In this document: positions 29,641 to 32,867 of the stretch, piece by piece
How the letters are laid out: each line of letters begins with the position of its first letter
Numbering within the stretch: position 1 is the stretch's first letter
Origin: Actinomycetes bacterium
Lineage (GTDB): Bacteria > Actinomycetota > Actinomycetes > Nanopelagicales > Nanopelagicaceae
Direction: 5' to 3'
Assembly (NCBI GenBank): GCA_043776875.1
Contig: JAYVQU010000039.1
Coordinates: 29,239 to 93,238 of the forward strand
DNA: 64,000 bases
Translations under genes and position numbers: made by a program
The notes under the pieces: generated by a model
What the model saw: only the letters and a program-made list of their open reading frames with translations
Told to the model about the DNA's origin: nothing
Databases searched by the model: none

Positions 29641-31539
29641 TTACCCTACGGTAATCGTCACCAAGCTGCCACGTTTGACCATTGTGTTTGCTGCTGGTGA
29701 AACTCTTTTGACAACCGCTATCTTACTATTTCCAATTGTTACGACTCTTACCTTAAGCCCAAGGGACTCAAGCATCTCTTTACCAGCGATTGCTTCCATC
29801 GCGATAATAGTTTGTGGAATATATGTATAGCGAGATCCCCTTGAAATCAAAATAAAAACACTTCCACCCTTATTTGCAGTTGTACCACCGGTTGGTGCTT
29901 GCGAAATTACAGCAAGTTCTGGAACCACTTCGCTAAATGCATACCCGGTTTCAACATTAAACCCAGCTTGAGTCAATTCATTGAGGGCTTGTTCACCGCT
30001 TAGACCTAGATAAGAAACAAGCGCAACTTGTTCAATTCCCTTTGAAACAATTAGATCAACCTTTGCGGCTCGTTTCACAGATGAGCCAGCAGCAGGGGAG
30101 GTTGCAATCACAAATCCTTTTAGAATTTGCGCGTCAAATACTTCGTTAAGTTTGCCAATCACCAGTGGATATTTTGAAAGGGCAGATTGAGCCGCGTCAG
30201 GTGTTAAGCCAGTTGTAGTTGGAATTTTGTATCTTTCTGGCCCCTTTGAGATTATTAAATTAACGCTTCCGCTTACTTCCACCTTTCCACCCCCAGGTGG
30301 CTGCGATTCAATGACTTTTCCCTTTGGAATCTCTTCATCAAATCTGCTTTCAATAACTGCTGCAGTTAAACCCAAAGGCGCAAAGATCGAAATGGCTTCA
30401 TTGTAAGTACCGCCTACCGTGGATGGAACAACAACTTGTGAACCTGGACCTACTAATGTCCACCAGCCACCAACCCCGAGTGCAACTGCAAGAATCAAAG
30501 CAACCTTGCGGTTTCTGCGCACCCGCTTGCTTGCTTTCCGTTTCTTTTCTTCTCGTCGTTTAATTTCGCGCGTTGACTCTCTTAGTACGAATTCATCTAC
30601 CTTGACTGGTACCTCCTTAATTTTTTTATGAGCCTTTTCCCGGATTGGTTCAACTGGCAAATCCAAACCAAGATCCATTTGGTTCTTCTTTGGATCTAAA
30701 TTGATTTGAATCTGCTGCAATTTTTCTAGAAACTCACCAGCTGACCTTGGTCGGGAATCGGGATTTCTCGCCGTGGCACTAGCAATTAACTCATCTAATG
30801 ATTGTGGGATCTCTTTGCGTTTGCTTCTCAGGCGCGGAATTTCTTCATTGACATGCATGTATGCAATTTGAATTGGCGAGTCCGCTTCAAATGGCTTTTG
30901 GCCAGTAAACATTTCATAGGCAACAATTCCTACGGCATAAACGTCGCTACGCGAATCAGCAATTCCTCGCTGAACCTGTTCGGGGGATAGGTAAGACACA
31001 CTTCCCAAGATCACACTTGATTCGGCGGTCATTGATGAACCGATGAGCGCGCCTCGAGCAAGTCCAAAGTCTGCGACCTTGATTCGACCATCATGTGATA
31101 TCAAAATATTCTCTGGTTTGATATCTCTATGCACAATTCCCAATGCATGTGCTGCTGCCAGTGCACTAAGAATTGGTGTTAAGTAATTGATTGCATCTTT
31201 TATTTCAAACCTGCCGCGTTCCTTCAAATATTGACGTAAAGTATGACCTTCAATGAGTTCCATCACCAAGAAGACGGCCGGAATCCCATTTTGATTCCAG
31301 CCCTGATCTTGTACCGCCACGATGTTTGGGTGCGAAAGTGCAGCAGCAGCTTTTGCCTCACAAATAAACCGAGAAACAAAGACCTCATCTTGGGCAAGAT
31401 GAGGATGCATAATTTTGACCGCAACTTTACGATCTAGGCGGATATCAAGGCCTTCATAAATCGATGCCATGCCTCCATTGGCCATCTGACGCAGTAATTG
31501 GTAGCGCCCATCAATGAGTTCACCGGACAGATCGGACAT
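29641..31539 (-). CDS. PASTA-domain Ser/Thr protein kinase (Stk1/PknB/PknL type)
   Basis: GGMASIY, VAVK, HRDIKPEN, DFG, YLSPE; TM segment; several PASTA repeats. Start set to ATG 31539, 6 nt after TAAAAT. Confidence 0.94.
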   Translation of the reverse strand: MSDLSGELIDGRYQLLRQMANGGMASIYEGLDIRLDRKVAVKIMHPHLAQDEVFVSRFICEAKAAAALSHPNIVAVQDQGWNQNGIPAVFLVMELIEGHTLRQYLKERGRFEIKDAINYLTPILSALAAAHALGIVHRDIKPENILISHDGRIKVADFGLARGALIGSSMTAESSVILGSVSYLSPEQVQRGIADSRSDVYAVGIVAYEMFTGQKPFEADSPIQIAYMHVNEEIPRLRSKRKEIPQSLDELIASATARNPDSRPRSAGEFLEKLQQIQINLDPKKNQMDLGLDLPVEPIREKAHKKIKEVPVKVDEFVLRESTREIKRREEKKRKASKRVRRNRKVALILAVALGVGGWWTLVGPGSQVVVPSTVGGTYNEAISIFAPLGLTAAVIESRFDEEIPKGKVIESQPPGGGKVEVSGSVNLIISKGPERYKIPTTTGLTPDAAQSALSKYPLVIGKLNEVFDAQILKGFVIATSPAAGSSVKRAAKVDLIVSKGIEQVALVSYLGLSGEQALNELTQAGFNVETGYAFSEVVPELAVISQAPTGGTTANKGGSVFILISRGSRYTYIPQTIIAMEAIAGKEMLESLGLKVRVVTIGNSKIAVVKRVSPAANTMVKRGSLVTITVG

Positions 31540-31555
31540 ATGCAAATTTTACGGA

Positions 31556-31576
31556 GTGCACCTGTTGCAGGTGCAC
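31556..31576. terminator. GC-rich 9-bp hairpin, possible terminator of the riboswitch-kinase transcript or an operator on the kinase promoter
   Basis: GTGCACCTG-TTG-CAGGTGCAC is a perfect inverted repeat. There is no clear U-tract. Confidence 0.4.
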
Positions 31577-31594: not shown

Positions 31595-32086
31595 TTATGA
31601 AGTGATTTTATACCCGCAATTTTCGCGGGTTTCATCATTTCGAAAGTGGATAGCTTGATCGATTTGCCATTGCCGCATTAGCTTCGCCAAATGTCCACCA
31701 TCTCGAGCTAGCACCCGTTGCAAACCTATTTCCGGCTCAACATCTAACCAATAAGTTGTTGCACCGGCTGCTCTAACAATACGCTGGGCCGCACCAACAC
31801 CTTCCAGAATGAGAACATCAGTTGGTGTTATTACCTGCCTTTGATCAAAGATCATGCTGTTCCAATTAAATTTCTGGACAGTGAACTCTCTTTTTTCTTT
31901 ATGGGCCGCTAGTATCCTTTTGAGAATTTGCGTCAAATCATCACTGAGCGCATCATCCCAGCCACTGTACAACTCATCCATATGAATGAGTTGTACAGTG
32001 GAAAAGCGGGAAAACTGCGCAGCAAACTTTGCTGCCAGGGTGGTCTTGCCGGCGCCGGCGGGACCATCAATAGCTAAGAGAATCAC
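31595..32086 (-). CDS. Uridine-kinase-like P-loop kinase; 5' end possibly frameshifted
   Basis: AIDGPAGAGKTT, HMDELY, ILEGVG, LQRVLARDG. An in-frame TAA lies just above TTG 32104; first GTG at 32086. Confidence 0.8.
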   Translation of the reverse strand: MILLAIDGPAGAGKTTLAAKFAAQFSRFSTVQLIHMDELYSGWDDALSDDLTQILKRILAAHKEKREFTVQKFNWNSMIFDQRQVITPTDVLILEGVGAAQRIVRAAGATTYWLDVEPEIGLQRVLARDGGHLAKLMRQWQIDQAIHFRNDETRENCGYKITS

Positions 32087-32132
32087 GCCAGCGTTTCCAA
32101 CCAATTAAGGCCGTAAACAAAGTTGTTGACAT
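32067..32132 (-). CDS. 21-aa ORF MSTTLFTALIGWKRWRDSLSY directly behind the riboswitch SD (leader peptide or frameshifted kinase N-terminus)
   Basis: AAAGGA-AATCATT-ATG at 32132; TGA at 32069-67; overlaps the kinase GTG out of frame. Confidence 0.45.
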   Translation of the reverse strand: MSTTLFTALIGWKRWRDSLSY

Positions 32133-32140
32133 AATGATTT

Positions 32141-32220
32141 CCTTTCCGCATCCGCATTACCGAATGGGTCAATCGGTCGGTCTGGATTTCAGACCCTCTC
32201 AGCCGTGGTGGCTCCCGTAA
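32141..32220 (-). ncRNA. TPP (THI-box)-like riboswitch, variant in P4/P5
   Basis: Minus strand reads CGGGAGC-CACCACGG-CTGAGA-GGGTCTGAAATCCAGACC-GACCG-ATTGACC-CATTCG-GTAATG-CGGATG-CGGAAAGG. P2, P3, CUGAGA, P3a and the L5 TAATG loop are present; the J4/5 UGA is absent. Confidence 0.75.
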
Positions 32221-32225
32221 CTAGT

Positions 32226-32235
32226 AGAGTAGCGT
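32226..32235. promoter_or_regulatory. Putative bidirectional promoter for riboswitch and crtYc
   Basis: Plus TAGCGT (32230-35) lies 6 nt before the crtYc GTG; minus TACTCT (32226-31) places a TSS at the aptamer 5' end. Confidence 0.55.
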
Positions 32236-32241
32236 TATCCC

Positions 32242-32568
32242 GTGCTCAAGTTTAGTTATTTGGCAATGATTGTCTTCACAATTGTTGGATCATTCTGGCT
32301 AGAATTGTTTTTAAAAGTTAAGGTAATCCAGCGGTACCGGCGTGCTTTTAAGGCAATCTTTCCGGTTTCCTTGATTTTCATTGCCTGGGATGCCTACGCA
32401 ATCAAAAGTGGGCATTGGCGCTTCGATGAGGCGCAAATTTTAGGAATCTACGGTCCATTTTCTATTCCGCTTGAGGAGTATCTATTTTTCACGGTTGTAC
32501 CCCTCGCCGCAATTATGACAATAGAAGCGGTTAGTGCAGTTAAAAAGCATTGGCGGATATACAAGTGA
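32242..32568 (+). CDS. crtYc: Heterodimeric lycopene cyclase subunit (CrtYc-like)
   Basis: Membrane protein with FIAWD.YAI..GHW.F and IPLEEYLFF. Confidence 0.85.
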   Translation: MLKFSYLAMIVFTIVGSFWLELFLKVKVIQRYRRAFKAIFPVSLIFIAWDAYAIKSGHWRFDEAQILGIYGPFSIPLEEYLFFTVVPLAAIMTIEAVSAVKKHWRIYK

Positions 32569-32867
32569 GATACACACAGTTGGCAATAGCTGCGGTTTTG
32601 ATTGCAATGACTGTTGACTTATTCGTTGTTAGGACGGCGTTACTTAAACGCAAAGTGTTCTGGAGTACATACGCGATCATAGTTGGATTTCAATTGCTCA
32701 CAAATTGGTGGCTCACCTCGCGCAACATTGTCATTTACCGCCCAGATGTAATCATTGGTCTAAGAATTGCTTCGGCCCCGGTAGAAGATTTGCTGTTTGG
32801 TTTTGCCCTGGTCTTAGGCGTGCTAGTTAATTGGATACGGCTAGGCGCTTCAGATAAGCAGCGCTAG
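32565..32867 (+). CDS. crtYd: Heterodimeric lycopene cyclase subunit (CrtYd-like)
   Basis: FQLLTNWWLT, APVEDLLFGF; GTGA overlap with the crtYc stop. Confidence 0.85.
   Translation: MRYTQLAIAAVLIAMTVDLFVVRTALLKRKVFWSTYAIIVGFQLLTNWWLTSRNIVIYRPDVIIGLRIASAPVEDLLFGFALVLGVLVNWIRLGASDKQR

What the first reader, a model, noticed from the sequence alone, without database searches (positions are those of the whole stretch)
31595..32104. Uridine-kinase-like orphan under thiamine-type control: candidate vitamin B1 salvage kinase
The only gene behind the riboswitch is a 160-170-aa P-loop kinase (DGPAGAGKTT, HMDELY, LEGVG) of the uridine-kinase/PRK fold, with no thi biosynthesis or ECF transporter genes. 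Uridine-kinase-fold proteins phosphorylate other vitamin nucleosides (nicotinamide riboside kinase, type I pantothenate kinase), so a thiamine, HMP or HET kinase is plausible for a probable B1 auxotroph. From memory, thiamine genes occupy the slot next to this PASTA kinase in other actinobacteria; that needs verification.
Basis: inference. Interest (0 to 1): 0.62.

Follow-up and report, generated by a model that had tools for sequence, protein, structure and literature searches.

The report
Candidate P-loop thiamine kinase, transporter partner deleted
A small uridine-kinase-fold enzyme behind a vitamin-B1-type riboswitch in a freshwater acI actinobacterium is the best candidate for the missing enzyme that turns imported thiamine into thiamine monophosphate, and it stands alone here only because its usual transporter partner gene was deleted in frame.

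Summary
Window 31595-32086(-) encodes an intact 163-aa P-loop kinase of the uridine-kinase/PRK/PanK-I fold. A conserved, covariation-supported but sub-threshold TPP-like riboswitch lies upstream at 32146-32218(-).

The kinase is not a true orphan. In every relative examined except one metagenomic locus, the riboswitch is followed by a PnuT-like transporter gene whose end overlaps the kinase start. Here about 510 bp of pnuT were deleted in frame. A 21-codon relic ORF remains and keeps the ribosome-binding site, the start codon and the overlap with the kinase start.

The genome and 16 relatives have ThiL. They lack ThiE, thiamine pyrophosphokinase and a credible ThiK. Fifteen of those relatives have a single Rfam TPP-like hit, always before pnuT-kinase; a custom model finds the element in the sixteenth.

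The most likely function is ATP-dependent phosphorylation of thiamine to TMP, which traps imported vitamin for ThiL. This is inferred and not assayed. HMP or HET kinase roles are unlikely because ThiD, ThiM and ThiE are absent. Homologues in high-GC actinobacteria show no thiamine context, so the prediction is secure only for the riboswitch-linked clade. Databases name the family "uridine kinase family protein" or hypothetical.

The parts
31595..32086 (-). P-loop kinase CDS (GTG start, 163 aa plus stop; the longest ORF starts at TTG 32104). Walker A is DGPAGAGKTT. Other family motifs are H-M-D-E-L-Y-x-G-W, F-N-W, L-E-G-V-G and R-V-L-A-R-D-G.
32067..32132 (-). Relic mini-ORF MSTTLFTALIGWKRWRDSLSY*. 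It consists of the first ~8 and last ~13 codons of pnuT fused in frame, and it overlaps the kinase GTG by 20 nt, as the intact pnuT does in relatives.
32139..32144 (-). Shine-Dalgarno AAGGAA of the former pnuT start, directly 3' of the aptamer and 6 nt before ATG 32132.
   Evidence: conserved GGAAAGGAA-N6-7-ATG in the closest relatives
32146..32218 (-). TPP-like riboswitch aptamer core. It has P2, a short P3, CUGAGA, a P3a hairpin, and a continuous 8-bp P4/P5 helix with a 1-nt 3' bulge and a GUAAUG loop.
32226..32231 (-). Candidate -10 box TACTCT (TAnnnT; TAGAGT or TAAAGT in relatives). It lies about 8 nt before the aptamer and leaves little room for a P1 stem. Inference only.
   Evidence: reading of alignments; not called by the sigma-70 scan
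31556..31576 (-). Perfect 9-bp hairpin (GTGCACCTG-TTG-CAGGTGCAC) between the kinase stop and the PASTA kinase start. Role unknown.
   Evidence: sequence; not called as a terminator
29641..31545 (-). Downstream PASTA Ser/Thr kinase (PknB-like); a conserved neighbour of the operon in relatives.
32242..32867 (+). Divergent lycopene cyclase pair (crtYc/crtYd-like) bounding the riboswitch on the other side.

Best explanation
The gene encodes a thiamine kinase of the P-loop uridine-kinase/PRK fold (ATP + thiamine -> TMP + ADP). In acI actinobacteria, which cannot make thiamine, it is co-translated with the facilitator PnuT. It traps imported thiamine as TMP, and ThiL then converts TMP to TPP. The operon is held under translational control by a TPP-type riboswitch variant whose 3' end abuts the ribosome-binding site. 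In this genome pnuT was removed by an in-frame deletion. This genome also carries a ThiB/ThiP-type ABC importer with its own TPP element. The 21-codon relic ORF keeps the riboswitch-controlled start and the 20-nt overlap, so the kinase probably remains riboswitch-regulated by translational coupling. Shown: the anatomy, the conservation, the fold and the gene inventory. Inferred: the substrate, the product, the coupling mechanism and the riboswitch ligand.
For: (1) Operon: 10 of 10 genome loci and 14 of 14 complete same-genus genomes carry riboswitch - pnu (PF04973, 118-122 bits) - kinase with a 20-nt overlap. Two genomes of another family (f60) and 14 of 15 low-GC metagenome loci have pnu immediately upstream of the kinase.
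(2) Regulon: in 15 of 16 relatives the only RF00059-like hit in the genome is the one before pnuT-kinase. The 16th has it by my model R1 at 53.7 bits.
(3) Metabolic gap: ThiL is present in the window's genome (203 bits, above cut-off) and in 16 of 16 relatives. ThiE is absent from all 17. Canonical TPK is over cut-off in 0 of 301 Actinomycetia. ThiK-type is absent or 43 bits or less in the 16. ThiC/D/G/H/M/S are not found in the window's genome.
(4) PnuT transports thiamine and does not bind TMP or TPP, and Pnu genes are typically paired with trapping kinases (PMC5749112). THI element plus PnuT in acI has already been noted (PMC5301498).
(5) The kinase is kept without PnuT in two lineages, here and in L063. 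It retains every family-wide residue that is at least 90% conserved, and dN/dS is 0.16-0.40.
(6) It is a small-molecule kinase fold: UCK2/PRK/PanK, TMq 0.7-0.79.
Against: There is no biochemical evidence. The riboswitch is a non-canonical variant (29-40 bits, no J4/5 internal loop) whose ligand is untested. The specificity of this Pnu clade is inferred only from the riboswitch. Homologues in high-GC actinobacteria, with 132 of 301 Actinomycetia genomes holding a family member, show no TPP element or thi neighbours, so the wider family may have another or a broader substrate. The genome has no E. coli-type Udk, so a nucleoside kinase role is not excluded by redundancy. The window's genome also has an APH/choline-kinase-like protein with a weak ThiK match (76 bits against a 299 cut-off). 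dN/dS against the closest relative is 0.40, on few changes.
Confidence: 0.6

Rival explanations
1. It phosphorylates a different Pnu cargo or a thiamine-related compound rather than thiamine itself, for example a pyrimidine or thiazole precursor, a degradation product or analogue, or nicotinamide riboside. The riboswitch variant would then sense that compound.
For: The aptamer lacks the canonical pyrophosphate-sensing internal loop, so its ligand need not be TPP. NCBIfam scores the transporter as PnuC, nicotinamide riboside (62-65 bits, above cut-off 42). Uridine-kinase-fold enzymes act on several vitamin-like substrates (PanK hits).
Against: ThiD, ThiM and ThiE are absent, so HMP-P or HET-P would be dead ends. 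The aptamer keeps the invariant ACGGGAGCC...GGCUGAGA pyrimidine-sensor side of TPP riboswitches. ThiL is retained without any other source of TMP.
Confidence: 0.17
2. It is an ordinary uridine/cytidine (nucleoside) kinase, as databases name it, and its position behind the riboswitch has no bearing on substrate.
For: The best structural matches are UCK2 and Thermus Udk. Sources call homologues 'uridine kinase'. No E. coli-type Udk is found elsewhere in the genome.
Against: Udk models score 31.7-31.9 bits against cut-offs of 220 and 180. BLAST against E. coli Udk aligns only the Walker-B/lid segment at 28%. By reading the sequence, the Udk nucleoside-binding motifs (NYDHP, Y-x-x-x-x-H-x-R, RGR lid) are absent. 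The protein is translationally coupled to a vitamin transporter under the only TPP-like element of the genome.
Confidence: 0.08
3. It makes TPP directly, either as a thiamine pyrophosphokinase or as a TMP kinase redundant with ThiL.
For: Known PnuT partners are usually thiamine pyrophosphokinases (my own knowledge of the family; the colocalisation of pnu genes with kinases is noted in PMC5749112). No TPK exists in these genomes.
Against: By established knowledge of the P-loop kinase class, Udk/PRK/PanK-type enzymes transfer one gamma-phosphate to a hydroxyl and not a pyrophosphoryl group. ThiL is conserved in 17 of 17 genomes, which would be unnecessary if TPP were made in one step.
Confidence: 0.07
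4. In this genome the kinase is a decaying leftover of the destroyed pnuT operon and no longer functions.
For: Its transporter partner is deleted. dN/dS against the nearest relative is 0.40, higher than the 0.16 against a more distant one.
Against: The ORF is intact and all family-wide conserved residues are kept. The deletion is in frame and preserves the SD, the start and the overlap. An independent lineage (L063) also keeps riboswitch plus kinase without pnu. ThiL still needs a TMP source, and a ThiB/ThiP importer is present.
Confidence: 0.05

Closest known systems
PnuT-thiamine pyrophosphokinase and PnuC-NadR uptake-and-trapping modules
   Same: A Pnu-family facilitator gene is directly coupled to a kinase that phosphorylates the imported vitamin. 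It sits under a vitamin-specific control element, with the riboswitch before the transporter.
   Different: The kinase is neither TPK nor an NadR-type RNK domain. It belongs to an uncharacterised Udk/PRK-fold family. The predicted product is TMP, which then needs ThiL. In this window the transporter itself has been deleted.
Uridine-cytidine kinase (Udk/UCK2), PRK and type I pantothenate kinase (Pfam PF00485 superfamily)
   Same: The fold and P-loop are shared, as are the Asp after strand 2, the EG(V/I)G Walker-B-like strand and the R-x-x-x-RD lid.
   Different: Identity is 16-21%. The protein is about 45 residues shorter than Udk. Udk equivalog scores are far below cut-off. The pocket motifs differ (H-x-D-D-x-Y-x-G-W; Y/F-D/N-W).
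NCBIfam NF005115 (PRK06547, 'hypothetical protein'); 'uridine kinase family protein' of Actinomycetota
   Same: It is the best-scoring family (98.3 bits, E 3e-28, full length). The same conserved motifs occur across 129 representatives.
   Different: The score is below the equivalog cut-off of 173. The riboswitch-linked proteins form their own, nearly monophyletic clade, and only they have a thiamine context.
E. coli thiamine kinase ThiK (TIGR02721, APH/choline-kinase fold)
   Same: The proposed reaction is the same (thiamine + ATP -> TMP), feeding ThiL.
   Different: The fold is unrelated. ThiK-type proteins are absent or very weak in the relatives. E. coli thiK is not riboswitch-controlled (my own knowledge).
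TPP riboswitch (THI element, RF00059)
   Same: P2/P3 with CUGAGA, the P4/P5 arm with a UAAUG loop, and a position before a thiamine transporter gene.
   Different: It scores 27-40 bits against a 54.3 gathering score. P3 is short and a P3a hairpin is added. The J4/5 internal loop is replaced by a continuous helix with a 1-nt bulge, 3 nt in L037.

Membership tests
Pfam PF00485 PRK (phosphoribulokinase/uridine kinase family) | Whole-protein score above the gathering cut-off (22 bits) | tested here: met
   27.2 bits, E 4e-6; no single stretch passes on its own
Pfam PF00485 PRK (phosphoribulokinase/uridine kinase family) | Udk/PRK/PanK-type P-loop kinase fold | tested here: met
   AF2 model pLDDT 87.8. 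Foldseek hits UCK2 6n53 (E 1.7e-9, TMq 0.79), PRK 5b3f (TMq 0.79) and PanK 4bfs (TMq 0.76)
Uridine kinase Udk (TIGR00235 / NF004018) | Score above the equivalog cut-off | tested here: not met
   31.7 against 220.3 bits; 31.9 against 180 bits
Uridine kinase Udk (TIGR00235 / NF004018) | Nucleoside-binding motifs (N-Y/F-D-H-P; Y-x-x-x-x-H-x-R; second RGR of the lid) | tested here: not met
   BLASTP against E. coli Udk aligns only residues 86-141 (Walker-B/lid). The motifs are absent on reading the sequence
NCBIfam NF005115 PRK06547 (uncharacterised actinobacterial kinase) | Score above the equivalog cut-off (173 bits) | tested here: not met
   98.3 bits over residues 6-162; best hit, but below cut-off
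Thiamine kinase ThiK (TIGR02721) | APH/choline-kinase-type sequence | tested here: not met
   No ThiK model appears among the 20 NCBIfam hits of the kinase. The fold is P-loop
Thiamine kinase (activity, EC 2.7.1.89) | ATP-dependent formation of TMP from thiamine | not testable with these tools
   Inferred from operon, regulon and pathway gap only
Thiamine pyrophosphokinase TPK (TIGR01378) | TPK catalytic and B1-binding domains | tested here: not met
   No hit in the genome. Over cut-off in 0 of 301 genomes of the class
Pnu transporter - trapping kinase module | Pnu gene adjacent to and co-oriented with the kinase | tested here: not met
   Not met in this window, where only a 21-codon relic remains and there is no pnu anywhere in the genome. 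Met in 16 of 16 relatives' genomes and in 14 of 15 low-GC metagenome loci
Pnu transporter - trapping kinase module | Vitamin-specific regulatory element upstream | tested here: met
   TPP-like element before the operon in all cases
TPP riboswitch RF00059 | Score at or above gathering (54.3 bits) | tested here: not met
   29.4 bits here; 27.6-40 bits in relatives
TPP riboswitch RF00059 | Conserved pyrimidine-sensor side (P2/P3, CUGAGA) supported by covariation | tested here: met
   C-GGAGCC (A and the first G nearly invariant) and GCTGAGAGG are invariant in 25 sequences. P3a and P4/P5 have 10 pairs with compensatory changes, and 0 of 500 shuffles do as well
TPP riboswitch RF00059 | P4/P5 with the J4/5-J5/4 internal loop (pyrophosphate sensor) | tested here: not met
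   Continuous 8-bp helix with a single 3' bulge, 97% paired

The most novel reading that the evidence does not exclude
The actinobacterial 'uridine kinase family protein' group (PRK06547-like) would be a third, structurally unrelated class of thiamine-phosphorylating enzyme, a P-loop thiamine kinase. It would supply the missing salvage step in the most abundant freshwater bacteria, and possibly in the 44% of sampled Actinomycetia genomes that hold a homologue. Its riboswitch, having lost the pyrophosphate pocket, would read thiamine or TMP, the kinase's own substrate or product, rather than TPP.
Probability: 0.3. Interest if true: 0.75.

Novelty: new variant of a known kind. Interest (0 to 1): 0.57.

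Why it matters
acI (Nanopelagicales) are among the most abundant freshwater bacteria and are obligate thiamine auxotrophs. Published reconstructions found a THI element and a putative PnuT but stated that nearly all salvage enzymes are missing (PMC5301498). That leaves no route from imported thiamine to TMP even though ThiL is retained.

A P-loop thiamine kinase would close that gap. It would add a third non-homologous solution for thiamine activation, beside ThiK and TPK. It would also correct the widespread 'uridine kinase' annotation, at least for the riboswitch-linked clade.

The idea is directly testable with one recombinant enzyme and one E. coli complementation. The in-frame relic ORF is a neat natural case of a deletion that keeps translational coupling and riboswitch control for the downstream gene.

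Tried and rejected
- Rfam at gathering threshold over the whole window found nothing. The element appears only in E-value mode.
- The PDB sequence search gave only P-loop-level hits.
- HMP or HET kinase was rejected because ThiD, ThiM and ThiE are absent.
- The APH-like ORF on contig C47 was rejected as the lineage's thiamine kinase. It scores only 76 bits against a 299 cut-off, sits beside a sarcosine-oxidase-like gene, and ThiK-type hits are absent or very weak in the 16 relatives.
- A class-wide TPK-versus-kinase anticorrelation was uninformative. Canonical TPK is absent from all 301 genomes, and only ~40-bit partial hits in ~400-aa ORFs occur.
- A thiamine context for high-GC homologues was not found. 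There is no TPP element within 1.5 kb, and neighbours are heterogeneous: rbpA-secG-tpiA, HisG, FAA hydrolase, MOSC and others.
- MFE folding of the leader gave no significant expression-platform model (z = -1.0).
- The promoter and terminator scan called nothing in the leader.
- ThiQ for the ThiB/ThiP importer could not be assigned.
- Literature searches for this kinase as a thiamine kinase found nothing. One search failed.

Full report
**1. What is at the coordinates**

The ORF 31595..32104(-) exists as described. It carries the Walker A motif DGPAGAGKTT, plus HMDELY and LEGVG. Gene callers and all relatives use the start equivalent to GTG 32086, giving 163 aa.

Pfam places it weakly in PRK/uridine kinase: PF00485 scores 27.2 bits against a cut-off of 22. 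The best NCBIfam model is the uncharacterised NF005115/PRK06547, at 98.3 bits against a cut-off of 173. The Udk equivalogs score about 32 bits against cut-offs of 180-220.

An AlphaFold2 model built on 19 homologues is confident (pLDDT 87.8, pTM 0.84). Foldseek against the PDB returns uridine-cytidine kinases (6n53, TMq 0.79, 16-19% identity), phosphoribulokinases and type I pantothenate kinase. Membership in Udk proper is not.

**2. The riboswitch**

Nothing in the window reaches an Rfam gathering score. In E-value mode, RF00059 (TPP) matches 32128-32228(-) at 29.4 bits, E 9e-4.

Orthologous elements occur at the same place in every relative:
- 9 of 9 genome loci with upstream sequence, at 28.6-38.4 bits;
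- 15 of 16 whole genomes, at 27.6-40 bits;
- the 16th (L037) by eye and by my model R1, at 53.7 bits.

I wrote out a structure by hand and counted it on an alignment of 25 elements (A3). Of the cells, 98.5% are paired. Ten of 21 pairs show changes on both sides. None of 500 shuffles does as well, and pairing collapses to 16-40% when partners are slid.

The P2/P3/CUGAGA side is invariant. P3 is short and a P3a hairpin is present. The P4/P5 arm is a continuous 8-bp helix with a single 3' bulge, instead of the canonical internal loop.

I had seen the feature before reading that note, and I tested it. The ligand is therefore thiamine-type but not established as TPP.

No terminator follows the aptamer. 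Its 3' end runs straight into a Shine-Dalgarno sequence (AAGGAA, 32139-32144) and an ATG at 32132. This fits translational control, which is an inference.

**3. Why the kinase looks like an orphan**

Ten related loci from 'Ca. Planktophila'/acI MAGs share one arrangement. It reads crtE-crtI-crtB-(crtYcd)-riboswitch-pnu-kinase-PASTA kinase-nfo. The pnu gene (191-193 aa) overlaps the kinase start by 20 nt. It is a Pnu-family transporter: PF04973 scores 118-122 bits.

In the window, the ATG behind the riboswitch opens a 21-codon ORF, MSTTLFTALIGWKRWRDSLSY* (32132..32067). Aligned with intact loci, it consists of the first ~8 and last ~13 codons of pnuT, with about 510 bp missing between them. The genome has no other Pnu homologue; the only trace is the 14-residue C-terminal relic.

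A 79%-identical metagenomic relative still has pnuT, so the deletion is recent. The deletion is in frame and preserves the SD, the start codon, the stop and the 20-nt overlap. The kinase has no convincing SD of its own. I therefore infer that it is still expressed by translational coupling to the riboswitch-controlled relic ORF.

**4. Pathway context**

The genome is 1.80 Mb, 46.8% GC and 99.98% complete.
- It has ThiL (203 bits, above cut-off).
- It has no thiamine pyrophosphokinase and no ThiE.
- tblastn with E. coli ThiC, D, G, H, M and S finds nothing.

The 14 complete same-genus genomes and two genomes of a second small-genome family (f60) were checked in the same way.
- ThiL is present in 16 of 16.
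- ThiE is present in 0 of 16.
- ThiK-type is absent in 12 and scores 43 bits or less in the other four.
- Canonical TPK is absent from all 301 sampled genomes of the class.

Each of these genomes has exactly one TPP-like element, and it lies about 1.1 kb upstream of the kinase, before pnuT. The whole thiamine-type regulon of a typical acI cell is therefore pnuT plus this kinase.

PnuT from Shewanella is a thiamine facilitator that binds neither TMP nor TPP. Pnu genes are commonly colocalised with kinases that trap the transported vitamin (PMC5749112). Kang et al. already noted the THI element and the putative PnuT in acI, and they stated that nearly all thiamine synthesis and salvage enzymes are missing (PMC5301498). 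The passages I read do not mention the kinase.

A retained ThiL without ThiE needs a source of TMP. A thiamine kinase is the missing step, and this gene is the only conserved candidate.

**5. The window's genome as a natural experiment**

Its second TPP-like element (contig C5, 42.6 bits) precedes a ThiB-type binding protein (TIGR01254, 235 bits) and a ThiP-like permease. An IS30-like transposase ORF (named from reading the sequence, not scored against a profile) follows at the contig end.

Among 17 genomes, only this one has a ThiB over cut-off. So the one genome that lost PnuT is the one that carries an ABC-type thiamine importer, and it kept the kinase.

The kinase retains every residue that is at least 90% conserved across 129 distant representatives: D7, G8, G11, G13, K14, A18, D37, G42, W43, W75, E95, G96, G98, R124, R128 and D129. 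Its dN/dS is 0.16 against a 79% relative and 0.40 against an 89% relative.

Independently, metagenome locus L063 has the same crt/PASTA-kinase synteny, and its kinase is 41% identical. It carries the riboswitch directly before the kinase, with no pnu gene and no recognisable relic. The riboswitch-kinase pairing is thus more constant than the riboswitch-transporter pairing.

**6. Limits of the inference**

The family is broad. A full scan finds 1123 representative clusters, and 132 of 301 Actinomycetia genomes hold a homologue.

In high-GC members I found no TPP-like element within 1.5 kb, either with Rfam or with my variant model. There is no pnu. Neighbours are unrelated to thiamine: rbpA-secG-tpiA, HisG, FAA hydrolase, MOSC, class-V aminotransferase, histidine phosphatase, or a response-regulator-like gene.

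In a maximum-likelihood tree, 26 riboswitch-linked proteins form one well-supported clade (100/96). The f60-type trio lies nearby. The whole set needs only two changes of state.

The pocket motifs H-x-D-D-x-Y-x-G-W, Y/F-D/N-W and R-x-x-x-R-D-G are shared family-wide. A common substrate is therefore plausible but unproven. Databases call these proteins 'uridine kinase (family protein)', 'cytidylate kinase' or 'hypothetical'. Full-text searches found no paper assigning them to thiamine.

**7. Rivals**
- A generic nucleoside kinase cannot be excluded by redundancy, because no E. coli-type Udk is found. It fits neither the Udk profile scores nor the operon.
- HMP or HET kinase would feed enzymes that do not exist here.
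- A one-step pyrophosphokinase is unlikely for this fold and would make ThiL superfluous.
- The APH-like ORF on C47 matches ThiK at 76 bits against a 299 cut-off, and matches a GntI-like model at 163 bits. ThiK-type hits are absent or very weak in the 16 relatives.
- Decay after loss of pnuT is argued against by the intact motifs and by L063.

**8. Verdict**

The most likely mechanism is an uptake-and-trapping module whose kinase belongs to an unrecognised family, and whose transporter here was swapped and deleted. I put about 0.6 on thiamine kinase activity.

This is a new variant of a known kind of system. It has moderate to good interest because it makes a pathway gap in a dominant freshwater lineage directly testable.

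Noticed in passing
L001:1501-2660 (= G000 contig C5:36145-37304; operon continues to C5:38948, transposase C5:39126-40283): A second, more canonical TPP-like element (42.6 bits) precedes a ThiB-type binding protein and a ThiP-like permease, followed by an IS30-like transposase ORF (named by reading, not profile-tested) at the contig end. ThiB over cut-off occurs in this genome only, among 17 compared. No thiQ could be assigned.
   Followed up: partly
L063:2310-2998: A metagenomic acI-like lineage with the same crt/PASTA-kinase synteny has the variant riboswitch directly before a 194-aa kinase. It has no pnu gene and no relic, so it is an independent riboswitch-kinase-only arrangement.
   Followed up: partly
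window 31556-31576: A perfect 9-bp inverted repeat (GTGCACCTG TTG CAGGTGCAC) lies in the 55-nt gap between the kinase stop and the PASTA kinase start. It is not followed by a clear U-run, so it may be an attenuator or processing site, or nothing.
   Followed up: no
window 32242-32867; compare L003-L007 with L008-L012: The heterodimeric lycopene cyclase pair (crtYc/Yd-like) between crtB and the riboswitch is present in the window and in some relatives. It is absent in others, where crtB is followed directly by the riboswitch. This is a presence/absence polymorphism in the carotenoid cluster.
   Followed up: no
window 32226-32231 and the same column in alignment A1: A conserved TAnnnT box (TACTCT, TAGAGT or TAAAGT) sits about 8 nt before the first aptamer helix. 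The transcript may therefore start almost at P2, and the variant may lack a P1 stem.
   Followed up: no
G000 contig C47:44832-45800(-): An APH/choline-kinase-like ORF (322 aa) beside a sarcosine/dimethylglycine-oxidase-like gene. It matches a GntI-like kinase model (163 bits) and ThiK (76 bits), both far below cut-off. Its substrate is unknown.
   Followed up: partly
protein P0223 (714 aa, from the representative library): One homologue of the kinase is fused N-terminally to a chorismate-binding (TrpE/PabB-like) enzyme: PF00425 at 286 bits and PF04715. It could be a gene-call artefact or a hint of a different role in some lineages.
   Followed up: no
class-level genome sample: 149 of 301 Actinomycetia genomes give only a ~40-bit partial match to positions ~9-58 of the TPK model, inside ORFs of about 400 aa. 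None reaches the cut-off, so canonical thiamine pyrophosphokinase seems to be absent from the class sample.
   Followed up: no
L075:1776-3001: In a low-GC lineage, a 30-33% identical homologue of the kinase overlaps by 4 nt the end of a 205-aa gene that looks, by reading its sequence (not profile-tested), like a winged-helix response regulator, with no riboswitch or pnu. This is a different and unexplained conserved pairing (L076 is similar in sequence).
   Followed up: no
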